Shown: positions 40,643 through 64,000 of the stretch, in pieces
Position numbering within the stretch: position 1 is the stretch's first letter
Layout: every line of letters starts with the position of its first letter
Assembly: GCA_037441645.1 (NCBI GenBank)
Contig: JBBIRU010000012.1
Location: 86,863 to 150,862, forward strand
Reading direction: 5' to 3'
Length of the DNA stretch: 64,000 bases
Origin: Bacteroidota bacterium
GTDB taxonomy: Bacteria; Bacteroidota; Bacteroidia; Bacteroidales; GWA2-32-17
Program-made: the position numbers and the translations under genes
Notes under the pieces: model-generated
The model's database searches: none
What the model was told of the DNA's origin: nothing
Seen by the model: only the letters and a program-made list of their open reading frames with translations

Positions 40643-41506
40643 TTACTTCTTAGTTAACTTTGTTAAAAGCATATTATATTCATCTTCATTCTCAAAAAGA
40701 AGAATTATTTTGCCTTTCCCGTCAGCATTCTTTTTTATATCAGCTTTACATTCCATTTTTTTACTGATACTTTCTTTGGCCTTCCTTATTTCTGCAGAAA
40801 TTTTGCTGCGTTTTGTAGAAATTTTGGCCGTTTCGTTTGATAATTCCCTTACAATATCTTCCACTTTGCGAACAGAAAAATCGTAACGAAGTATCTCATG
40901 AAAAATCATAATCTGGGTTTCAGGATCTTCCACATTTATTAATGCCCTGGCATGTCCCATACTGATTTTTCTCTGCTTAATACCCATCTGGATTTCGGCA
41001 GGAAGTTTTAAAAGGCGGAGGTAATTAGTTATTGTTGAACGTTGTTTTCCAACCCTGTCGCTGAGTTTTTCCTGGGTAAGCTTACATTCATCGATCAAAC
41101 GATCATAACTTAAAGCGATTTCTATAGCATCGAGATCTTCGCGCTGAATATTTTCGACAAGTGCCATTTCGAGCATTCCCTGGTCATCAGCTTCACGGAT
41201 ATAAGCCGGAATTTCTTCCAGGCCAGCCAGTTTTGATGCCCTGAATCTCCGTTCGCCTGAAATTAACTGAAACTTATCTTCATCAATCTTACGAACAGTG
41301 ATAGGTTGAATTACACCATATACTTTAATAGATTCGGCCAAAGAAAGAATTGCTTCTTCGTCGAAGGTTGAGCGGGGCTGGAATGGGTTACATACAATCT
41401 TTTCAATTTGTATCTGGTTGTTTGTGCTGAATTCTGTACGCTGTGTTTGTGCATCTTCTATGAGTGCGCCCAATCCGCGTCCCAGCACGTTCTTCTTTCC
41501 GATCAT
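40643..41506 (-). CDS. parB: Chromosome partitioning protein ParB
   Basis: GLGRGLGALI, NPFQPR, QPITVR...LISGERRFRA, HTH region. Confidence 0.9.
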   Translation of the reverse strand: MIGKKNVLGRGLGALIEDAQTQRTEFSTNNQIQIEKIVCNPFQPRSTFDEEAILSLAESIKVYGVIQPITVRKIDEDKFQLISGERRFRASKLAGLEEIPAYIREADDQGMLEMALVENIQREDLDAIEIALSYDRLIDECKLTQEKLSDRVGKQRSTITNYLRLLKLPAEIQMGIKQRKISMGHARALINVEDPETQIMIFHEILRYDFSVRKVEDIVRELSNETAKISTKRSKISAEIRKAKESISKKMECKADIKKNADGKGKIILLFENEDEYNMLLTKLTKK

Positions 41507-41509
41507 GGG

Positions 41510-42310
41510 TTATTCGAGTATTTTTTCTGAGTTTTTAATTTTTGTCATTTCATTTTTTTGCATCACCTCGCGGGCAAGGTTCAGGTAACTTACCGAACCA
41601 CTTGAACTGGCATCATAAAGCAATACCGGTTTTCCATAACTGGGAGCTTCGCCCAGTTTAACATTTCTTGGAATTAATGTATCAAAAACCATTGTCTGAA
41701 AATGCTTTTTAACCTCTTCAACCACCTGGTTAGACAAGTTAAGACGGGAATCAAACATGGTTAACAAAAAGCCTTCTATTTCCAGTTCGGGATTCAGCCT
41801 GCTTTGAATAATCTTAATGGTATTGAGTAGTTTTCCCAAACCCTCCAAAGCAAAATATTCACATTGCACGGGAATAATAACAGAATTGGCAGCAGAAAGT
41901 GCATTTACGGTTATCAAACCCAGCGATGGTGAACAGTCGATAAAAACAAAGTCGTAATCGTTTTTCACTTTTTCGATTACCATTTTCATCATTTTTTCGC
42001 GGTTAGGTTGGTTAAGCATCTCTATTTCAGCTCCCACCAGATCGATATGAGAAGGAAGAATATGCAGCCCTTTTATTTCAGTTTCGAGAATGATATTCTT
42101 AGGATTTACATCATCAATAATACATTCATATATACTGGTTTTAATATTCTTCACATCGAAACCTGTCCCCGATGTAGCATTGGCCTGGGGGTCGGCATCT
42201 ACTATAAGAACCTTCTTTTCGAGAACAGCCAGGCTGGCTGCTAAATTAATAGCTGTTGTAGTCTTACCCACTCCACCTTTTTGATTTGCTAAAGCAATAA
42301 CTTTTGCCAT
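41510..42310 (-). CDS. parA: Chromosome partitioning ATPase ParA/Soj
   Basis: Deviant Walker A NQKGGVGKTTTAINLA, followed by VLIVDADPQANAT. Confidence 0.9.
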   Translation of the reverse strand: MAKVIALANQKGGVGKTTTAINLAASLAVLEKKVLIVDADPQANATSGTGFDVKNIKTSIYECIIDDVNPKNIILETEIKGLHILPSHIDLVGAEIEMLNQPNREKMMKMVIEKVKNDYDFVFIDCSPSLGLITVNALSAANSVIIPVQCEYFALEGLGKLLNTIKIIQSRLNPELEIEGFLLTMFDSRLNLSNQVVEEVKKHFQTMVFDTLIPRNVKLGEAPSYGKPVLLYDASSSGSVSYLNLAREVMQKNEMTKIKNSEKILE

Positions 42311-57293: not shown

Positions 57294-58670
57294 ATGCTTT
57301 CGATTATAACCATAGCAATCACAGGTGTTCTTCTTCTTTACTTAGGTTTCCTAAAGAACAGGGTCATCTATATTACTGTGGCTATTGCAGGACTTGTTAC
57401 AGCTCTTGGACTTTCATTTTTCTCATGGAATTCCGCAGAAACAGGATTTGCTGACATGCTGATTTTTGACCATTATTCTGTAGCCTTCAACTCTGTTATG
57501 ATTTTTTCCACTTTGTTAATTATTCTGTTGGCACCTCACTATTTTAAAGGAATTGAAAAGAATGTTTCAGAGATTTATGCCCTCATGCTTTTTTCACTTT
57601 CCGGTGCCTGCATGGTAACTTCCTTCGATAATTTAACTATGTTATTCATTGGTATAGAAACCATGTCGATTCCTTTGTATATCCTTGCCGGAAGCAAAAA
57701 ATTCTCCATCCGTTCCAACGAAGCTTCCTTCAAATATTTTATTTTCAGTTCCCTTGCGACAGCTATTTTTCTGTTAGGAATTACCCTGGTTTACGGTATG
57801 ATTGGTTCTTTTCATATCGAAGAAATTTCAAATTATTTTACAACTGCCAAAGAAATCCCTTCCATTCTGAAACTTGGCATTGTATTATTAGTTATCAGTT
57901 TTGGATTTAAAATAGCTGCCGTTCCTTTCCATTTCTGGGCTCCCGATGTGTATGAAGGCTCTCCGACTCTCATCACGGCCTTTATGGCGACCGTTGTTAA
58001 GATTGCAGGTTTTGCTGCATTCTATAAATTGTTATCCTCATGTTTTATTTCTGTTCCGGGAGCATGGCACCACCTTATCATAGGCTTTGCAGTTCTTTCT
58101 TTAATTGTAGGGAACCTCGGAGCCATCAGGCAAAAAGACGTAAAAAGAATGCTTGCTTATTCGAGTATTTCGCATACGGGATTTATGTTATTTGCCATAC
58201 TCTCGCTTAATACTTTCTCGGCAAGTGCATTATTGTATTATTCTTTTGCCTATGCCTTATCAACCATTGCTGCTTTTGGAGTATTAATGGTTGTTAAGAA
58301 TCACATGAGTGCTGATGGTTCTGTAGATGCATTTAACGGACTTGGCAAAAAGAATCCGATTTTTGCTTTCGTAATGACTATTTCCATGCTCTCAATGGCA
58401 GGGATTCCGGTTACAGCTGGCTTCTTTGCAAAATACTATATTTTTGTTTCTGCTCTACAGGGAGGTCTGTTGTGGATGGTTGTTATTGGTATTCTCGCAG
58501 CCCTCGTCGGTGTTGCCTATTATCTGAGACTAATTATTGCCATGTATGCAAAAACCAGCGATACGGAAAAAATAACCACAAGTCCACTTTACGTATTTTC
58601 ACTGCTCATTGCAACAATTCTGATTCTTGCAGCAGGGATTCTGCCAAATCTTGTAATTTCACTTATTTAA
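57294..58670 (+). CDS. nuoN: NADH-quinone oxidoreductase subunit N
   Basis: FKIAAVPFHFWAPDVYEGSPT...LAYSSISHTG. It is the last gene of the operon. Confidence 0.9.
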   Translation: MLSIITIAITGVLLLYLGFLKNRVIYITVAIAGLVTALGLSFFSWNSAETGFADMLIFDHYSVAFNSVMIFSTLLIILLAPHYFKGIEKNVSEIYALMLFSLSGACMVTSFDNLTMLFIGIETMSIPLYILAGSKKFSIRSNEASFKYFIFSSLATAIFLLGITLVYGMIGSFHIEEISNYFTTAKEIPSILKLGIVLLVISFGFKIAAVPFHFWAPDVYEGSPTLITAFMATVVKIAGFAAFYKLLSSCFISVPGAWHHLIIGFAVLSLIVGNLGAIRQKDVKRMLAYSSISHTGFMLFAILSLNTFSASALLYYSFAYALSTIAAFGVLMVVKNHMSADGSVDAFNGLGKKNPIFAFVMTISMLSMAGIPVTAGFFAKYYIFVSALQGGLLWMVVIGILAALVGVAYYLRLIIAMYAKTSDTEKITTSPLYVFSLLIATILILAAGILPNLVISLI

Positions 58671-58715
58671 CGGTTTGGCACCGACTGCCCGGTTTTTACC
58701 AAACGTGTGTTACCA
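58665..58715 (-). repeat. attC-like site E (short, 51 nt), a possible distal end of the array that overlaps the nuoN stop codon
   Basis: + strand ATTTAAC-GGTTTGG...CCAAAC-GTGT-GTTACCA. On the cassette-sense strand R' is GTTAAAT, a perfect GTTRRRY match. It shares TAACGGTT with sites A and D, and GTGTGTTA with A and C. It could instead be just the nuoN terminator. Confidence 0.3.
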
Positions 58716-58752
58716 TCAGTGTTTCTTTTTTGTCCTTGTTTTTTTTTTGTTG

Positions 58753-59652
58753 TTACGATACTAATGTTATGCCGGTTAAATCTGCTTTACCATTTTTCAA
58801 AAACTCGTAAGTAATTCGGTCTGCCTGACAGTCAATAAACTGGATACGCTTCAAATTCTTGCATTTAAAGAAGGTATTAATAAGTTTCGAATTTTGGAAG
58901 GTCACTTTGGAAAAAGAGCAGTTGTCAAAATAGCAGTCTTCCAATATTCCATCAAAAACTATATCGGCAATGTGTGTGTTTGTAAATGAAGTAGAATTCA
59001 ATACTGCATTTACAATTGTATTGTTTGCCAAGTTTGCAGCCTTAAACCCTGCTCCGGTAAAATCAGCCCCAGAGAAATTGCAGTTTTTAATGTCACTTAC
59101 TGAAAACTCAGAATCTTTTAGTGTGCAGCCCTTAAATAGATTGTTAGATAAGTTGGAGGTCTGAATTTTGCTGCTACTGATGTCGGAACTTGAGAAGTCA
59201 CAATTGACGACATTGTTGCTTTTTAGAAGAAGTCCCGACATATCTGAACCAACAAACTTGCAGTTCTTCATATTAGAAGCGCTAAATTTTTCTTTCAGAT
59301 TTTTTAAACCTGAAAAGTCAGCGTTCACCCAGTTTCCCTGTGACATATCCCAACTAAGCTTTTTCTTCTGCTTTGTGGATGAGAGCTCAACAGATTGCTT
59401 ATCTATAGGTTCAAGGGTTGTCACTTCAGTGTCTACAGATTGGAAGCTCTCAGAAAAATAGTTAAGGTCAACGCCCAGAATTTCAGCAAGACGATTTAAG
59501 GTAGTGATATCTGGCATAGATTCACCACGTTCCCACTTGCCGACTGCCTGAGAACTGATTGCTACTTGCTGAGCAAGCTCTGCTTGTGAAAGATTAATTT
59601 TCTTTCGTGCTATGGCAATTTTATAGCCAATTGATTTAGAATTTAGCATCAT
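58753..59652 (-). CDS. XRE-family HTH domain fused to a pentapeptide-repeat domain
   Basis: N-terminal IAIARKKINLSQAELAQQVAISSQAVGKWERGESMPDITTLNRLAEILGV. C-terminal tandem A(D/N)LxX-type pentapeptides (ADFSGLKNLKEKFSASNMKNCKFVGSDMSG...CNFSGADFTGAGFKAANLANN). Confidence 0.75.
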   Translation of the reverse strand: MMLNSKSIGYKIAIARKKINLSQAELAQQVAISSQAVGKWERGESMPDITTLNRLAEILGVDLNYFSESFQSVDTEVTTLEPIDKQSVELSSTKQKKKLSWDMSQGNWVNADFSGLKNLKEKFSASNMKNCKFVGSDMSGLLLKSNNVVNCDFSSSDISSSKIQTSNLSNNLFKGCTLKDSEFSVSDIKNCNFSGADFTGAGFKAANLANNTIVNAVLNSTSFTNTHIADIVFDGILEDCYFDNCSFSKVTFQNSKLINTFFKCKNLKRIQFIDCQADRITYEFLKNGKADLTGITLVS

Positions 59653-59824
59653 ATATTTTATTTTTTTGATGCTGTAAAGTTATTTTAATCAATACCATAA
59701 TCCAAAAAAAGTCGGCTACTAATCGTTGTAAATACGCTACTTTTGGTTGTTATTTGACAACCACTGGTGGTTTTAAGGAATTGTTCAAGTATTGTCTTCA
59801 TAAAGTTACTGTCAACATTAGAGT

Positions 59825-59938
59825 TTATATTAAAGCCGGGGCGAAGTAGTCAGCAAACTGCCCACCATTGACTTTACAAACTGTCGTGGTTGTGTGGTCG
59901 TCTAACATTCTGACTAACGTTTTTTTTAATTGTTTCAT
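59825..59938 (-). CDS. Possible small ORF (37 aa) with an internal Gly-Gly motif
   Basis: My hand translation gives MKQLKKTLVRMLDDHTTTTVCKVNGGQFADYFAPALI. A TATATTTG (-7 box-like) sequence lies 14 nt upstream of the ATG. It is too short for the ORF track and has no other support. Confidence 0.2.
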   Translation of the reverse strand: MKQLKKTLVRMLDDHTTTTVCKVNGGQFADYFAPALI

Positions 59939-60018
59939 ATACAACTATTTTGCAAATATACTCTCATTGTCGTCCCCAGAAAAGTTAGCCTTGTAAGTCA
60001 ATTTTGGCGAAACTGTAC

Positions 60019-60149
60019 AGCTAACGGTTCAGTGCAGAATTTGGCGGACAAAGTTTCTTGCAGTATCCTGTCAAACCCCTACGAATTATATTACTTGCAA
60101 TCTTTGTCATAATGTTCCCTGCCTGTTAAGATTTTGTACGATGTTATGT
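60019..60149 (-). repeat. attC-like site D (131 nt, degenerate)
   Basis: + strand AGCTAAC-GGTTCAGTGCAGAATTTGGCGGA ... TGTACGAT-GTTATGT, abutting the stop codon at 60150. The left arm is homologous to sites A and B. The right end TGTACGATGTTATGT resembles TGCACGATATTAGGC of site B. The right arm appears interrupted by about 45 nt. Confidence 0.45.
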
Positions 60150-61217
60150 TTAGTATTTATTTTTATTCATGTCTTTTTTATAATTCTTTACCATTTTTCC
60201 AAAAGCCTTGTCCTTTTTTCGCTTTTCTATAACTGTTGATTCATAATGTGCCTTTTCTTTTTCAATTTTTTGATAGTTGTCATAAGATTCTTTCTCAATT
60301 TCACCACATTCAACAGCTTCAATTACGGCACAACCAGTTTCGAATGTATGAGTGCAATCTTTAAATTTGCAGTTCTGAGAAATTTGAAAAATCAGATCAA
60401 AAGTGATTTCAAATCCATTTGACGCGTCAGCAATACCAACTTCTTTCATGCCAGGATTATCAATTAAGATTCCTCCATTTTCAAGAATTATTAACTCTCG
60501 ATGAGTTGTAATATGCCGTCCTTTATTTGTACTCTGGCTTATTTTATCAGTTTTCATTATGTTATTACCAGAAAGATTATTCAATAAAGTAGATTTTCCT
60601 ACACCTGAGGAACCAAGCAAACAATATGTTTTTCCTTTTTCAATTATCATTCTTATTTTTTCATACCCAACCTTTGTCTCGTTACTTATTGGAATAATTG
60701 TAACGTTTTTAATTCGAATGGTTAGATTTCTTAATATCTCACTCATTTGAAATTCATTAATTAAATCTATTTTACTCAGAACAATTATAGGTTTAACATG
60801 AGATGAGTTACAAATAGTAAGATATCTTTCAAGTCTGTTTATATTAAAATCTCTGTCAATAGCTTGAACTAAAAAGGCAAAGTCAATATTTGTTGCAATA
60901 ATCTGAATTTCTCCAAATTGTCCAATTGCTTGTCTTTTTATAATTGAAAATCTCGGTAATATTTTATGAATTAATGCAAAATCAGAGTCATAAGTTGTCA
61001 ATGCAACCCAATCACCAACTGCAGGAAAATCTTCACGACCTTTTGCAGTAAAACGCATATTACCTGTTATTTCAGCTTCAAAATCACCTTCAGTTGTTTT
61101 AACAATATACCGTTCCTTATGCTCGGCAATAATTCTCCCGGTTTCAAAACTATCTAGATTCTGTTCGACTCTGAATTTTTCAAGATTATCATTGTATCCT
61201 AATTCCTCTAATTTCAT
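60150..61217 (-). CDS. rsgA: Ribosome small-subunit-dependent GTPase A (RsgA/YjeQ)-like protein
   Basis: OB-fold N-terminus (GRIIAEHKERYIVKT...VGDWVAL); circularly permuted GTPase motifs (ATNIDFAFLV, VLSKIDL, LLGSSGVGKSTLLNNL, GRHITTHREL, IDNPGMKE); Zn-knuckle CKFKDCTHTFETGCAV. Confidence 0.8.
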   Translation of the reverse strand: MKLEELGYNDNLEKFRVEQNLDSFETGRIIAEHKERYIVKTTEGDFEAEITGNMRFTAKGREDFPAVGDWVALTTYDSDFALIHKILPRFSIIKRQAIGQFGEIQIIATNIDFAFLVQAIDRDFNINRLERYLTICNSSHVKPIIVLSKIDLINEFQMSEILRNLTIRIKNVTIIPISNETKVGYEKIRMIIEKGKTYCLLGSSGVGKSTLLNNLSGNNIMKTDKISQSTNKGRHITTHRELIILENGGILIDNPGMKEVGIADASNGFEITFDLIFQISQNCKFKDCTHTFETGCAVIEAVECGEIEKESYDNYQKIEKEKAHYESTVIEKRKKDKAFGKMVKNYKKDMNKNKY

Positions 61218-61255
61218 TTTAGTAAATATGCTATTTTGTTTTTTTTAAGTATTAA

Positions 61256-61450
61256 GCATAACGTTGGCTTGAAAAAGCTGGGCTTCCGATAGCTATCGGG
61301 ATAGCCGCAGGGAGAGCCTGTCCCGCTTTGGGCGGGATCAAATTTAAAATATTGGCAACATTTATTTTTGTCTGTACCGTTAATATGTTTGTTTCTTTTT
61401 TCCATTTTCAAGTGGCTGCTGACACCCAATTAATTTGTAGTGTGTTAGGC
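61256..61450 (-). repeat. attC-like site C (195 nt, unusually long, with extra internal hairpins)
   Basis: + strand GCATAAC ... TGTAGTGT-GTTAGGC, lying 7 nt below the stop of the upstream ORF. The right end is homologous to sites A and B. The centre holds two small hairpins: perfect CCGATAG/CTATCGG and TCCCGC-tttgg-GCGGGA. Confidence 0.45.
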
Positions 61451-61457
61451 ACTGGCA

Positions 61458-62579
61458 TTATTTAAGTATCACAAATTCCCGAAAATTATTTTTATCAATC
61501 ACTGTACTGTTGGCGTTATAAGTTTCAGTAAAAGTTTTAGGAAGTTTTATCGAGTTCTTCTTATTCCATTTAAATTCATATCCATAAATTTTGCCATTAT
61601 ACTCTTCAACAAAATCAACTTCTTGTTGCTGCTTTGTCCTCCAAAAATACGTATGTGCCAGGCTTTGCTTATATTCAATTTGCTTTACCCTTTCAGATAT
61701 TAAAAAATTTTCCCATAAAGCACCCTTGTCTGTTCGTAAATCAATAGGATTAAAGTTACCTATTACCATATTTCGAATTCCATTATCATAAAAATAAACT
61801 TTCTTATTTGTTTTTATTTCATTTCGTACATTTCTACTGAATGCCCCAAGTTTAAACACAATATATCCTTTTTGTAAAATATCAATGTATTTACTAATTG
61901 TGTTTTTGTCAACATTTACAGTTTGTGCTAATTCGGAATAATTAACTTCGTTTCCGATCTGAAGGGCTAAAGCCTGCACAAGTTTTTCAAGGATTTCCGG
62001 CTTCCTGATATCGGAATAAGAAAGAATATCTTTGTACAGATAGCTGTTTACTAAATTTTTTAAAATACTAATTTCATCTCCATGGTTATTTAAAACATCA
62101 GGATAAAAGCCATATAACAGCCTGTTTTCAAGTTGTTGCTCAGAATATAAGTATCCGTGATGATTTTCATACTCCTCCCAGGAAATTGGAAATAATTGAT
62201 ATTCCCATTTTCTACCTGTCAACGGTTCATTAATTTTATTTGATAAGTCAAAAGATGATGAACCGCTTGCAAATAATTGGATATCTTTACATCTGTCAGT
62301 TATAATTTTCATTGTAAGACCTATTCCTTCAATTCTCCGGGCTTCATCTATAAATACTATTTTATTTTTCCCAATTATTGTCCTGATTTGTTCAGTATTT
62401 GGGTGTGTTAATATAGTTTTGGTCTTTGGGTCATCGCCGTCTAGAAGCAAATAGTCTTTTTTATTCAAAATAGTTTCAATTAAAGTTGTTTTGCCAACTT
62501 GTCTTGGTCCCATTAGAATAATGGCTTTACCTGAGCCAATACGTTTTTTTATTTTATCCGTCAGTGTTCTGAAATACAT
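61458..62579 (-). CDS. AAA-type ATP-binding protein (AAA_14 + DUF4143 architecture)
   Basis: Walker A LMGPRQVGKTTL, Walker B-like IVFIDEARR, and a C-terminal region typical of DUF4143 proteins (YFWRTKQQQEVDFV). Confidence 0.75.
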   Translation of the reverse strand: MYFRTLTDKIKKRIGSGKAIILMGPRQVGKTTLIETILNKKDYLLLDGDDPKTKTILTHPNTEQIRTIIGKNKIVFIDEARRIEGIGLTMKIITDRCKDIQLFASGSSSFDLSNKINEPLTGRKWEYQLFPISWEEYENHHGYLYSEQQLENRLLYGFYPDVLNNHGDEISILKNLVNSYLYKDILSYSDIRKPEILEKLVQALALQIGNEVNYSELAQTVNVDKNTISKYIDILQKGYIVFKLGAFSRNVRNEIKTNKKVYFYDNGIRNMVIGNFNPIDLRTDKGALWENFLISERVKQIEYKQSLAHTYFWRTKQQQEVDFVEEYNGKIYGYEFKWNKKNSIKLPKTFTETYNANSTVIDKNNFREFVILK

Positions 62580-62599
62580 ATCTTTTTTCTTACAAAGAT

Positions 62600-62633
62600 A
62601 TAACTTTTAGTGATATTATTCACTATAAGTTAT
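62600..62633. promoter_or_regulatory. 14-bp inverted repeat (1 mismatch) upstream of the ATPase cassette gene, a candidate operator
   Basis: ATAACTTTTAGTGA-tattat-TCACTATAAGTTAT, 21-54 nt upstream of the ATG at 62579. A minus-strand TATCTTTG -7 box lies between it and the start. Confidence 0.3.
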
Positions 62634-62667
62634 ATTATTTAGTGGTTGCATTTCTCACAACAATAGT

Positions 62668-62825
62668 CCCTAACGAATTGGTGCATGTTTTCGTAGCGGA
62701 TTCCGGTGAACATCAGCGTCCGTCCCGAGCCTTCGGGAGGACGTGACGGTCATGCGAGTCCCGAAGCATCGGGACCGCCGATTGAACCGGCACGAACCCG
62801 CTATGAAATATGCACGATATTAGGC
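62668..62825 (-). repeat. attC-like site B (158 nt)
   Basis: + strand CCCTAAC-GAATTGGTGCATGTTTTCGTAGCGG ... CCGCTATGAAATATGCACGAT-ATTAGGC, with complementary arms. It shares the 20-nt block GGACGTGACGGTCATGCGAG with site A. It lies 8 nt below the stop of the upstream ORF. Confidence 0.6.
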
Positions 62826-62833
62826 ACTGAACA

Positions 62834-63448
62834 TTATTTTTTAAATTTCCATTGAATCCCTAAACCTGGATAGATTAATTCAACATTTCTATTGTACTTT
62901 ATATTATCAAATGTATCTTTCTCTCTAAGTTTAGTGAATTCGTATGAAATAGATACATAAAAATTTAAATTTTTGTGATTAAAAAACAATAATTTTGTTG
63001 CAGCTTTAATAGATAATCCTTCATGATTTTCTTTATAAACTATTGATGGGATAAGATTGCCAAATTGGTCAACCAATGGTGCTTTAAATCGCAGGAATGA
63101 ATATCCGACACTAAGTTGTGGGATAATAGAGACTTTGGTAATATTTATATCATATTCAAATTTGACTTTTGGGCTGATTATATTCAAGTCGACATCTCCA
63201 ACTTTTAAATTTAAATATGAGGAATAGAGTATTAAACCATATTTAAAATTCGAATTGTTATAAAAGGTATAATCTAGTCCAAAATCAAATTCTCCAGAAT
63301 ACCCTGTTCCAAATGCCCGATTGATAAAGTTATCACCTTGTGGCATGGGGTATCTTACTTCAAGCGCAAGTTTACTGTTATTGTTTTGTGAGAATGAATT
63401 TATAATTACAATAAATGTAATTCCCAATGTTGAAAATATCTTTTTCAT
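62834..63448 (-). CDS. Small outer-membrane beta-barrel protein (OmpW/porin-family-like)
   Basis: Signal peptide MKKIFSTLGITFIVIINSFSQ, alternating-hydrophobicity beta strands, C-terminal GLGIQWKF-KK. Confidence 0.6.
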   Translation of the reverse strand: MKKIFSTLGITFIVIINSFSQNNNSKLALEVRYPMPQGDNFINRAFGTGYSGEFDFGLDYTFYNNSNFKYGLILYSSYLNLKVGDVDLNIISPKVKFEYDINITKVSIIPQLSVGYSFLRFKAPLVDQFGNLIPSIVYKENHEGLSIKAATKLLFFNHKNLNFYVSISYEFTKLREKDTFDNIKYNRNVELIYPGLGIQWKFKK

Positions 63449-63477
63449 ATTTAAAGTTTTTTAATTTAATGTTTTGC

Positions 63478-63610
63478 ACCTAACGGTTTTGCGCAGATGT
63501 TCGTGGCGGATTTTCGGTGATCGTCAGCGTCCAAAGGACGTGACGGTCATGCGAGAATCCGCAGATAGAACCGTTACGCTCCCCGCCATGACATTTGCAC
63601 TGTGTTAGGC
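63478..63610 (-). repeat. attC-like site A (133 nt)
   Basis: + strand ACCTAAC-GGTTTT-GCGCAGATGTTCGTGGCGG ... CCGCCATGACATTTGCAC-TGT-GTTAGGC. The nested inner hairpin is GCGGATTTTCG...CGAGAATCCGC with apex GTCAGCGTCC-aaa-GGACGTGAC. On the cassette-sense strand R'' is GCCTAAC and R' is GTTAGGT, both perfect consensus matches. Confidence 0.6.
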
Positions 63611-63615
63611 TTAGT

Positions 63616-64000
63616 TTATTCTCCATTTTTACTTTCCTGCAATTCTCTAAATACCATTGATATAATATTATCACTTGGGGTAATCTCTGCAAAATGAAGA
63701 GATAATACAAGTTTTAATTTACTTCTAAGAAACTCATCTGGAATCTCGTCACACAATTTAAGTGATTCTTCTATTTTTCTGTCAGCTCTAAGCTTTTCAA
63801 AAAAGTTTGCCATTAATTCTCTACTTTTATTTGACTGAACAAAGAATAAAGCTGAAACAGAGTCTATTATTGTACCAGATATTATCGAAATTATTGAATT
63901 ACTTTGTGTCCAAAAAGATTTTTCTTTATCGACTGTTAGTATTGCGATTACTATTACAGCAAATCCTAAAGCAGCAAAAATTAAACTAAACCAAAAACTA
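63616..64000 (-). CDS. Membrane protein, partial (5' end beyond the window)
   Basis: The minus-strand frame is open to the window edge: ...FWFSLIFAALGFAVIVIAILTVDKEKSFWTQSNSIISIISGTIIDSVSALFFVQSNKSRELMANFFEKL...ESKNGE*. The ORF track lists only the part from the internal Met at 63813. It has at least two hydrophobic helices. Confidence 0.6.
   Translation of the reverse strand, partial: SFWFSLIFAALGFAVIVIAILTVDKEKSFWTQSNSIISIISGTIIDSVSALFFVQSNKSRELMANFFEKLRADRKIEESLKLCDEIPDEFLRSKLKLVLSLHFAEITPSDNIISMVFRELQESKNGE

What the first reader, a model, noticed from the sequence alone, without database searches (positions are those of the whole stretch)
58665..64000. Integron-type gene-cassette array with a homologous family of attC-like sites, directly abutting the nuo operon
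The case rests on five observations.
1. Reading the minus strand downward from the window end, each ORF (63616..>64000, 62834..63448, 61458..62579, 60150..61217) is followed by a GC-richer imperfect palindrome. The palindrome starts 0-8 nt after the stop codon.
2. The ends of each palindrome are the integron attC core boxes. + strand coordinates: A 63478 ACCTAAC...GTTAGGC 63610 (133 nt); B 62668 CCCTAAC...ATTAGGC 62825 (158 nt); C 61256 GCATAAC...GTTAGGC 61450 (195 nt); D 60019 AGCTAAC...GTTATGT 60149 (131 nt); E 58665 ATTTAAC...GTTACCA 58715 (51 nt). On the cassette-sense strand this puts a GCCTAAC-type R'' (RYYYAAC) next to the stop codon. The R' box (GTTAGGT / GTTAGGG / GTTATGC / GTTAGCT / GTTAAAT, consensus GTTRRRY) lies at the far end.
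3. The arms next to the boxes are self-complementary. In A, GCGCAGATGTTCGTGGCGG pairs with CCGCCATGACATTTGCAC. In B, GGTGCATGTTTTCGTAGCGG pairs with CCGCTATGAAATATGCAC.
4. The arms are also homologous between sites. TAACGGTT occurs in A, D and E. TGTGTTAGGC occurs in A and C. A 20-nt block, GGACGTGACGGTCATGCGAG, is identical in A and B. The centres differ. This is the pattern seen in attC families of sedentary chromosomal integrons.
5. The next ORF begins 29-88 nt past each R' box. All ORFs share one orientation, are functionally unrelated, and are visibly more AT-rich than the neighbouring core genes.
No integrase or attI is in the window. By cassette polarity it would lie beyond 64000. Otherwise this is a CALIN, an attC cluster lacking an integrase. 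Chromosomal integrons are far better characterised in Proteobacteria than in Bacteroidota, so the site family and its cassette pool merit a closer look.
Basis: partly seen in the sequence, partly recalled or inferred. Interest (0 to 1): 0.85.

Follow-up and report, generated by a model that had tools for sequence, protein, structure and literature searches.

The report
Integrase-less integron cassette array, Bacteroidia
Right after the last gene of the nuo operon, this Bacteroidia chromosome carries a short, partly decayed array of integron-type mobile gene cassettes separated by folded attC recombination sites; the kind of element is known but rarely described in this phylum, and no integrase was found in the sequence examined.

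Summary
Only sites A (63478-63610) and B (62668-62825) are well-supported attC hairpins. They fold end to end and score 130 and 109 bits with a family covariance model. D is a weak, ends-only match (E 0.06). C and E are not detected and do not fold end to end.

The integron reading holds because of related DNA. The same ~140-nt site family occurs in 22 metagenome contigs. It forms a 7-site array in Draconibacterium mangrovi and a one-strand array of at least 29 sites over 49 kb in a 2.89-Mb contig.

- 41 of 44 base pairs covary.
- A duplicated cassette in D. mangrovi is bounded exactly at G|TT of the R' boxes.
- The bases before each R'' box complement the start of that site's own cassette, as expected for units that integrated as circles. 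The window shows this too, more weakly (p about 0.009).

No tyrosine recombinase was found in the window. In three relatives the same nuoN-to-aminotransferase gap holds different genes and no integrase. I call it a CALIN-type cassette cluster: a new member of a known kind, of moderate interest.

The parts
57294..58670 (+). nuoN, the chromosomal flank of the array. Its stop codon TAA (58668-58670) is the complement of the TTA in site E's R' box, so the predicted junction G|TT falls at 58671|58670.
   Evidence: ORF list; Pfam Proton_antipo_M; homologues at 84-86% identity in relatives; sequence read directly.
58665..58715 (-). Site E. A putative terminal attC remnant of 51 nt: TGGTAAC-ACA-CGTTTGG...CCAAAC-C-GTTAAAT. 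It keeps the family's TAACACA and AACCGTTA motifs and has a 6-bp inner stem.
   Evidence: Boxes confirmed. Weak fold (-8.1 kcal/mol, z -0.9). Not detected by R1 or R2. Its R'' does not match the preceding tail (3 of 8). Support is contextual only.
58753..59652 (-). Cassette 5 ORF, 299 aa: an XRE-type HTH domain followed by pentapeptide repeats. A 366-nt ORF-free leader (59653-60018) precedes it.
   Evidence: Pfam HTH_19/HTH_3 and Pentapeptide_4; NCBIfam weak Qnr/HetL-like hits below cut-off.
60019..60149 (-). Site D, a decayed attC of 131 nt. The family ends are kept (ACATAACATCGTACAAAAT ... CTGCACTGAACCGTTAGCT) but the centre is degenerate. Predicted crossover at 60025|60024.
   Evidence: R2 gives 18.4 bits, E 0.06, ends only. 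No fold signal, z +0.45. Its R'' complements the tail of site C at 6 of 8 (9 of 11 by eye).
60150..61217 (-). Cassette 4 ORF, 355 aa: an RsgA-family GTPase.
   Evidence: NCBIfam TIGR00157 scores 162.7 bits against a cut-off of 100; Pfam RsgA_GTPase.
61256..61450 (-). Site C, a broken attC of 195 nt. The family R''-L'' arm (GCCTAACACACTACAAAT) and an R' box (AACGTTATGC) are present. The 3' arm is replaced by unrelated GC-rich hairpins. Predicted crossover at 61262|61261.
   Evidence: The ends do not pair. Not detected by either model. The 5' arm aligns with the site behind a 65%-identical AAA_14 gene in a metagenome contig. Its R'' complements the tail of site B at 6 of 8 (9 of 11 by eye).
61458..62579 (-). 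Cassette 3 ORF, 373 aa: an AAA_14/DUF4143 ATPase that matches the candidate phage-defence family PDC-S01. A Bacteroidota-type -7 motif TATCTTTG lies just upstream.
   Evidence: Pfam; PADLOC PDC-S01, 548 bits over the full length. A homologue followed by a family attC occurs in L017/L021. The promoter motif was read from the sequence and judged from my own knowledge of Bacteroides promoters.
62668..62825 (-). Site B, an intact attC of 158 nt: R'' GCCTAAT, paired L arms, a central hairpin with two extra ~17-nt stem-loops relative to A, and R' GTTAGGG. Predicted crossover at 62674|62673.
   Evidence: Fold -45.3 kcal/mol, z -6.1, ends paired. R1 123.6 bits and R2 109.4 bits.
62834..63448 (-). Cassette 2 ORF, 204 aa, with no family match. 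It has an N-terminal signal-like segment.
   Evidence: ORF list; no Pfam, NCBIfam or PADLOC hit.
63478..63610 (-). Site A, an intact attC of 133 nt: R'' GCCTAAC, 3-nt spacer ACA, L arms GTGCAAATGTCATGGCGG / CCGCCACGAACATCTGCGC, 6-nt spacer AAAACC, and R' GTTAGGT. Predicted crossover at 63484|63483.
   Evidence: Folds on both strands, z about -3. R1 141.5 bits and R2 129.8 bits. Homologous sites in L002, L003 and L008.
63616..64000 (-). The 3' part of the cassette 1 ORF (214 aa, CyanoTRADDas_TM). Its start, and an overlapping 68-aa ORF, lie beyond the window and are preceded by site F.
   Evidence: Logan contig L001, identical to the window.

Best explanation
This is a chromosomal cluster of integron-type gene cassettes. 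It was inserted immediately 3' of the nuoN stop codon and has no adjacent integrase as far as the sequence can be followed, which makes it CALIN-type.

Each unit is one ORF (one unit has two) followed by an attC site. An attC site is an imperfect palindrome with RYYYAAC at one end and GTTRRRY at the other, and it folds into a hairpin when single-stranded.

Inferred mechanism, from what is established for integrons:
- An IntI-type tyrosine recombinase binds the folded strand and cuts between G and TT of the R' box.
- It excises the unit as a circle and re-inserts it at another att site or at a GWT secondary site.

In this window only A and B are still intact substrates. C, D and E have decayed, so the RsgA-family, AAA_14 and HTH-pentapeptide units are probably fixed. 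Any further movement of the A- and B-flanked units would need an integrase supplied from elsewhere in the genome.

Shown here:
- the site family, its conserved folded structure and its array organisation;
- the G|TT unit boundaries, in a homologous array;
- the circular-cassette signature;
- turnover of gene content at this locus among relatives.

Inferred:
- the identity of the recombinase;
- which strand recombines;
- the present activity of the sites.
For: - A and B fold end to end and score 130 and 109 bits.
- The family is present in an uncultured Bacteroidales MAG, in Bacteroidetes GWA2_32_17 and in Draconibacterium mangrovi, and in 22 JGI metagenome contigs.
- It forms arrays of 7 sites (D. 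mangrovi) and of at least 29 sites over 49.2 kb. All sites are on one strand, and most start within about 45 nt of an ORF's stop codon.
- Across 54 distinct sites, 87.9% of cells are paired against 30-40% when partners are slid. 41 of 44 pairs show compensatory changes.
- The duplicated cassette in D. mangrovi is bounded at G|TT of R'.
- R'' complements the tail of the preceding site: 0 of 20,000 permutations in the other arrays, p about 0.009 in the window.
- Relatives with 84-86% identical nuoN carry different genes in the same nuoN-to-aminotransferase gap, with no integrase.
- One junction in the relatives breaks exactly at GTG|TTA.
- No family copies lie elsewhere in the window.
- The cassettes are functionally unrelated and have lower GC than the core genes.
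Against: - No integron integrase was found in the window. None was found in any fetched locus either, including 30 kb walked upstream in the large array.
- The IntegronFinder attC model could not be run, and Rfam returned no attC match.
- C, D and E do not fold as attC sites.
- Only 2 of 5 window cassettes show the R''/tail signature.
- The consensus hairpin shows no obvious extrahelical single bases on the '' arm. Canonical attC sites have them (own knowledge).
- The units are 0.8-1.4 kb and at least one seems to have its own promoter.
- One cassette encodes an RsgA-type GTPase, which is normally a core gene.
- In the relatives, the HIM1-domain gene (215 aa) and the ~200-aa ORF next to nuoN are conserved without recognisable family sites. 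Part of such islands may therefore be ordinary genes.
Confidence: 0.7

Rival explanations
1. The window shows the distal end of a complete sedentary chromosomal integron. Its intI, attI and Pc lie upstream of site F, beyond about window position 64,520.
For: Cassette polarity places intI on that side. The array continues past the window end, since site F lies at the end of contig L001. The same site family builds very large arrays elsewhere. The source NCBI contig is 178.5 kb long, so more sequence exists.
Against: In three relatives the homologous island has 4-5 genes. It is closed by a 94-aa gene and an aminotransferase, with no integrase. Three of the five window sites are decayed and the R''/tail signature is weak. 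That fits an unattended cluster better than an active platform.
Confidence: 0.2
2. The palindromes are a cassette-delimiting site family used by a recombinase other than a canonical integron integrase. This would be an integron-like system peculiar to Bacteroidota.
For: No IntI was seen next to any array examined. The hairpin differs from the canonical attC. In circular form its R stem has 10 paired bp, then a fixed mismatch, then 4 A/T bp. The spacers are 3 and 6 nt, and there are no clear extrahelical bases.
Against: The crossover lies at G|TT inside AAC/GTT inverse core boxes. That is the hallmark of IntI-type sites. No array start was ever reached, so the absence of intI is untested where it matters. 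Integron integrases are reported in Bacteroidetes (PMC9024848).
Confidence: 0.05
3. The sites are ordinary intergenic repeats (REP/BIME-like, MITE-like or terminators) with no role in gene mobility.
For: They are GC-richer palindromes placed after stop codons. E could act as a weak terminator for nuoN. The loose end boxes occur by chance.
Against: No copies lie elsewhere in 58 kb of the window. Orientation is strictly single and there is one ORF per site in the arrays. Unit duplication is bounded at G|TT. R'' pairs with the start of its own cassette rather than with the adjacent sequence. Nothing matched in the plasmid or viral collections.
Confidence: 0.03

Closest known systems
Sedentary chromosomal integron arrays with homogeneous attC families, such as the Vibrio cholerae superintegron and its VCR repeats
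   Same: One-orientation cassettes, each ending in a ~120-140-nt imperfect palindrome of one sequence family with RYYYAAC/GTTRRRY ends. Duplicated cassettes occur. The related 49-kb array carries defence-like multi-gene cassettes, as reported for SCIs (bioRxiv 10.1101/2024.07.02.601686).
   Different: The window holds only 5-6 sites and three of them are decayed. No intI, attI or Pc was seen. The host is a Bacteroidia bacterium. The R stem is longer and the spacers are 3 and 6 nt.
CALIN, clusters of attC sites lacking an integron integrase (Cury et al. 2016, PMC4889954)
   Same: At least two attC sites lie within 4 kb and no integrase is nearby. The cluster is small. The cassettes are of unknown or varied function.
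   Different: CALINs are defined by hits to the IntegronFinder model, which I could not run. Here the cluster sits at a locus that also varies in relatives. That suggests repeated use of one insertion spot.
Cassette insertion at GWT genome sites (attG) by integron integrases (bioRxiv 10.1101/2022.09.11.507474)
   Same: The array's last junction is a GTT that overlaps the nuoN stop codon (58668-58671). This fits insertion outside an attI and would explain an integrase-less cluster.
   Different: Nothing here shows how the first cassette arrived. The junction site E is itself poorly supported.
Canonical attC of mobile integrons, such as attC of aadA7 (own knowledge)
   Same: R''-L''...L'-R' order, crossover at G|TT of R', and the site placed directly after the stop codon.
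   Different: Canonical sites are mostly 57-141 nt. They have a 7-bp R box and two or three extrahelical bases on the '' arm of the bottom strand. This family shows a 10-bp R stem with an A/T extension in the circular form and no clear extrahelical bases.
REP/BIME and similar intergenic palindromes
   Same: GC-richer imperfect palindromes in intergenic DNA.
   Different: Those are short, dispersed and found in both orientations. This family is ~140 nt, clustered, single-oriented and bounds units that move as ORF plus site.

Membership tests
Integron attC site | Inverse core RYYYAAC (R'') at the ORF-proximal end and core GTTRRRY (R') at the distal end | tested here: met
   All five sites carry AAC (AAT in B) and GTT at the stated coordinates. 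On their own these boxes are weak evidence: loose pairs arise about 4 times per 64 kb by chance.
Integron attC site | Imperfect palindrome whose single strand folds so that R''/R' and L''/L' pair around a variable centre (sites A and B) | tested here: met
   End-to-end folds with z -2.9 to -6.1. Conserved structure with 41 of 44 covarying pairs across 54 family members.
Integron attC site | The same hairpin requirement, applied to sites C, D and E | tested here: not met
   C: the ends are unpaired. D: z +0.45 and an ends-only match, E 0.06. E: z -0.9 and not detected.
Integron attC site | Detected by the IntegronFinder attC covariance model | not testable with these tools
   That model is not available here. 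Rfam returned no attC match for this region.
Integron attC site | Two or three extrahelical bases on the '' arm that mark the recombining bottom strand | tested here: inconclusive
   The family consensus shows 3-nt and 6-nt spacers and a 2x3 loop, with the extra bases on the ' arm and no clear single-base bulges. A single-sequence fold of A shows one T bulge.
Integron gene cassette | The mobile unit is an ORF plus its downstream attC, bounded by crossovers at G|TT | tested here: met
   Shown in the homologous D. mangrovi array by a 100%-identical duplicated unit that ends at G|TT on both sides. It could not be tested directly on the window's own cassettes.
Integron gene cassette | R'' pairs with the first bases of its own cassette, so the site is reconstituted in the circular form | tested here: met
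   6.1-7.0 of 8 matches in L011 and L008, against 1.8 of 8 for the adjacent tail (0 of 20,000 permutations). In the window, 23 of 40 against 14.6 expected (182 of 20,000), carried by the B-to-C and C-to-D pairs.
Complete integron | An intI tyrosine recombinase with the IntI-specific domain next to the array | tested here: not met
The later loci show no full-length tyrosine recombinase in their listed Pfam calls; L043, which is not a family array, has only fragments. Pfam scans of 20 mid-sized window ORFs found no recombinase. Sequence beyond about 64,520 could not be fetched.
Complete integron | An attI site and a Pc promoter at the head of the array | not testable with these tools
   The head of the array lies outside the available sequence. 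attI sites also have no general model.
CALIN | At least two attC sites within 4 kb and no integron integrase nearby | tested here: met
   A and B lie 650 nt apart and site F is about 1 kb further on. There is no integrase from window position 1 to about 64,520. Relatives have the island closed without an integrase.
Sedentary chromosomal integron | A large array (more than 19, or more than 10, attC sites) or presence in all members of the species | tested here: not met
   Only 5-6 sites are visible here, and the relatives' islands have 4-5 genes. The site family does reach at least 29 sites elsewhere.
REP/BIME-like dispersed repeats | Copies scattered through the genome in both orientations, independent of ORF 3' ends | tested here: not met
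   The filter-off model search of all 64 kb found only A, B and a weak D. All array copies are on one strand and follow ORFs.

The most novel reading that the evidence does not exclude
These sites may represent a Bacteroidota-specific attC class. Its features are a length of about 140 nt, a 10-bp R stem with a fixed mismatch and an A/T extension, 3-nt and 6-nt spacers, and no obvious extrahelical bases. Standard attC models trained on proteobacterial sites might miss it. If so, integrons in Bacteroidota would be far more common than catalogues suggest, both as very large arrays (at least 49 kb) and as small integrase-less islands at recurrent chromosomal spots such as nuoN/aminotransferase. 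Strand choice, or the integrase itself, might then differ from the known paradigm.
Probability: 0.25. Interest if true: 0.7.

Novelty: new member of a known kind. Interest (0 to 1): 0.45.

Why it matters
- Surveys of complete genomes found only integrases without cassettes in Bacteroidetes in 2016, and a single complete integron (Salinibacter) in 2022 (PMC9024848).
- A defined, structurally conserved attC family that marks cassette arrays in Bacteroidia and Marinilabiliales gives a handle to find integrons and their cassette pools in a major environmental and gut phylum. Those pools include candidate phage-defence genes.
- It also lets one ask whether existing detection models under-count integrons in this phylum.
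- For this window itself the element is a small, partly decayed cluster, and its biological impact is probably modest.

Tried and rejected
- The Rfam scan of 56-64 kb gave only chance hits and no attC match.
- Of the 9 genome hits to the 20-mer, 6 were chance matches inside GC-rich coding DNA of unrelated phyla. About 1 is expected from database size alone.
- The source genome is not among the GTDB representatives scanned. The 178.5-kb NCBI contig that carries the identical nuoN could not be read. The window could therefore be extended only about 520 nt, through a Logan contig.
- I looked for an integrase in several ways, all negative:
  - tblastn with IntI1 against the window and the loci held at that point;
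  - a walk of 30 kb upstream along the 2.89-Mb contig, where the array still continues;
  - an apparent divergent gene at the end of L044, which is a spurious ORF across an attC site;
  - the D. mangrovi array, which runs off its contig end;
  - locus L043, which holds a homologous protein but is not an array of this family;
  - locus L041, which is only the distal end of another array.
- The plasmid collection and two viral-contig scans gave no match.
- I considered that the extra bases on the 3' arm meant the sites were inverted relative to the ORFs. The duplicated-cassette boundaries rule that out.
- Model R1 found no site in the relative L035. R2 found one weak site (E 0.009). The relatives' islands could therefore be compared only by gene content and a single junction.

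Full report
**1. What is in the window**

From 58.7 kb to the window end, five ORFs lie on the minus strand, downstream of the plus-strand nuo operon:
- 58753-59652
- 60150-61217
- 61458-62579
- 62834-63448
- 63616 to beyond 64000

On the ORF-sense strand each begins 0-8 nt after a stop codon with an xxxTAAC (or TAAT) box and ends with GTTAxxx. The 20-nt block shared by A and B is exact and unique, with 0 expected by chance. The region has 30-33% GC against 36-40% in the nuo genes.

**2. Which sites stand on their own**

Folded as single-stranded DNA, the sites behave differently:
- B pairs end to end (-45 kcal/mol, z -6.1 on both strands).
- A pairs end to end (z about -3).
- D has no folding signal (z +0.45).
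- E is a weak 51-nt hairpin (z -0.9).
- C folds only into local GC-rich hairpins and its ends do not pair.

Rfam returned no attC match. A loose version of the two end motifs arises about four times per 64 kb by chance and is seen eight times elsewhere in the window. The boxes alone are therefore not evidence.

**3. A conserved site family outside the window**

An exact 20-mer from the centre of A and B hit nine species-representative genomes. Six of those hits are chance matches in GC-rich coding DNA. Three are full-length homologues of A and B, each sitting between a stop codon and the next start. They come from:
- an uncultured Bacteroidales MAG;
- Bacteroidetes bacterium GWA2_32_17;
- the isolate Draconibacterium mangrovi GM2-18.

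A longer pattern found 22 JGI metagenome contigs.

A covariance model built from five sites (R1) then found further copies:
- Seven tandem sites in D. mangrovi, one ORF between each. The array runs off the contig end.
- 29 sites, all on one strand, over 49.2 kb of a 2.89-Mb metagenomic contig. I walked this contig in four overlapping loci without reaching the head of the array.

Across 54 distinct sites, 87.9% of cells form standard pairs, against 30-40% when partners are slid. 41 of 44 pairs show changes on both sides. The covariation score is 0.288, against 0.02-0.075 for the slid controls. That alignment was fitted to the model, which favours the structure. The first five-sequence MAFFT alignment was not fitted, and it already showed 8 compensatory pairs.

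**4. Evidence that these are mobile integron-type cassettes**

*Duplicated cassette.* D. mangrovi carries the same 236-aa cassette twice. The two copies are 100% identical from ACCG|TTAGCAATT... (the R' box of whichever site lies upstream) through the ORF and its downstream site, up to ...CCAACCG|TT. They diverge immediately outside that stretch, and the two upstream sites differ from each other. The unit is therefore the ORF plus its downstream site, cut at G|TT of R' on the ORF-sense strand.

*R''/tail complementarity.* In the large array and in D. mangrovi, the 8 nt before each R'' AAC complement the 8 nt after the GTT of the preceding site. Those 8 nt are the first bases of the site's own cassette. 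The match is 6.1 and 7.0 of 8, against 1.8 of 8 for the adjacent downstream tail. None of 20,000 permutations reaches the observed total.

This is expected if each unit once existed as a circle in which its attC was complete. Per position, the circular-form stem is AAC/GTT, then 7 bp, then a fixed mismatch, then about 4 A/T pairs.

*The window.* The same test gives 23 of 40 against 14.6 expected (182 of 20,000 permutations). The signal is carried by B-to-C and C-to-D (9 of 11 by eye for each). C and D were therefore real cassette ends even though their hairpins have decayed. C still aligns in its 5' arm with the site behind a 65%-identical AAA_14 gene in another array.

**5. Specificity within the window**

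A broader model built from 59 sites (R2) was run with filters off over all 64 kb. It finds:
- A at 129.8 bits;
- B at 109.4 bits;
- D at 18.4 bits (E 0.06, ends only);
- nothing else of note.

The family is thus not dispersed like REP elements. There were no matches in PLSDB plasmids or IMG/VR contigs.

**6. Integrase and locus history**

No tyrosine recombinase was found in the window. tblastn with IntI1 was negative, and Pfam scans of 20 mid-sized ORFs returned core genes such as holA, lpxK and parAB. The window could be extended only to about 64,520, where a sixth R' box (site F) ends a Logan contig.

Three relatives with 84-86% identical NuoN have a 4-5-gene minus-strand island in the same place. 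In each it is closed by a 94-aa gene and an aminotransferase, with no integrase at either end.
- Their island genes differ from the window's; none is shared.
- The relatives also differ partly from each other.
- One junction breaks exactly at GTG|TTA, and the next site's R'' matches that new tail.
- R2 detects one weak site in relative L035 (E 0.009).

This favours a CALIN-type cluster at a recurrently used spot. The last junction in the window, G|TT at 58671|58670, overlaps the nuoN stop codon. That is compatible with insertion at a GWT genome site (bioRxiv 10.1101/2022.09.11.507474), but site E is too weak to lean on.

**7. Cassette content**

- An XRE-type HTH plus pentapeptide-repeat protein.
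- An RsgA-family GTPase that passes TIGR00157.
- An AAA_14/DUF4143 ATPase that matches the PADLOC candidate defence family PDC-S01 at 548 bits.
- A 204-aa protein with no family match.
- A two-gene unit: a 68-aa ORF plus a 214-aa ORF with a CyanoTRADDas_TM domain.

The related large array carries defence-like multi-gene units, in line with reports for sedentary integrons (bioRxiv 10.1101/2024.07.02.601686). Examples are:
- radical SAM, TIR and HD;
- HTH and an N6-methyltransferase;
- M78 peptidase, a helicase and a Schlafen-type protein.

**8. Differences from the canonical attC**

The consensus hairpin has several unusual features:
- a 3-nt spacer on the '' side and a 6-nt spacer on the ' side;
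- a 2x3 internal loop;
- no clear single-base bulges on the '' arm.

Canonical sites carry extrahelical T and G on that arm (my own knowledge of attC aadA7 and VCR). I considered that this meant the sites were inverted. The duplication boundaries rule that out. How strand choice works here is open.

**9. Verdict**

The interpretation as an integron-type cassette array lacking an integrase is supported.

The literature lists Bacteroidota among phyla with integrons (PMC8618304, PMC9668308). Complete-genome surveys, however, found only In0 there in 2016 and one complete integron in 2022 (PMC9024848). This is a new member of a known kind.

The more novel possibility is a Bacteroidota attC class that standard models miss, or that a divergent recombinase uses. 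It remains open because I could neither run the standard model nor reach an array head.

Noticed in passing
window 60150-61217 (-): An RsgA-family GTPase that passes the NCBIfam equivalog cut-off (TIGR00157, 162.7 bits against 100) sits inside the cassette array, between decayed sites C and D. Relatives have no such gene at this locus. I could not tell whether it is the genome's only rsgA or an extra copy.
   Followed up: partly
window 62580-62667 (-), including 62598-62635: The leader of the AAA_14/PDC-S01 cassette holds a near-perfect 16-nt inverted repeat (ATATAACTTTTAGTGA / TCACTATAAGTTATAT) and a Bacteroidota-type -7 motif, TATCTTTG, about 17 nt before the ATG. This suggests the cassette has its own regulated promoter.
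   Followed up: no
window 59653-60018: A 366-nt stretch without a credible ORF lies between site D and the HTH-pentapeptide gene. It could be a long leader or the remnant of a lost cassette.
   Followed up: no
window 61280-61340 and 62715-62790: Short GC-rich stem-loops (such as GTCCCGCTTTGGGCGGGAT and CCGATAGCTATCGG) replace the 3' arm of site C. Two ~17-nt stem-loops are inserted into the centre of B relative to A. They look like small insertions into attC centres.
   Followed up: no
L011/L039/L040/L044 (ERZ25074695 ctg340550, record 2,747,035-2,796,192): This one-strand array of at least 49 kb and 29 sites includes defence-like multi-gene units. They include radical SAM, CAP12-PCTIR TIR and HD; HTH and an N6_Mtase/Eco57I; and Peptidase_M78, an AEP-TOTE helicase and SLFN_AlbA_2. 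The head of the array and the organism were not determined.
   Followed up: partly
L035 15149-15257 and L037 11480-11676: In two relatives the variable cassettes begin after a conserved 94-aa membrane-protein gene and an AT-rich stretch ending GAGTAGCGAKGTG|TTA, next to the aminotransferase gene. This could be an attI-like or secondary insertion site that has no integrase beside it.
   Followed up: partly
L038 977-1687 and 2768-3478 (D. mangrovi JAAAGB010000011.1): Two identical copies of a 236-aa cassette lie in one array, and the array causes the assembly to break at the contig end. A Fic-family cassette in the same array belongs to a 90%-identity cluster with 196 members across many metagenomes.
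   Followed up: partly
family consensus: The eighth base beyond GTT is an almost invariant C·A mismatch in the circular-form R stem. It is flanked by an A-run and a T-run that pair.
   Followed up: no
window 40643-42310 (-): parA and parB genes, together with core genes such as holA, lpxK and the whole nuo operon, show that the window is ordinary chromosome apart from the cassette island.
   Followed up: no
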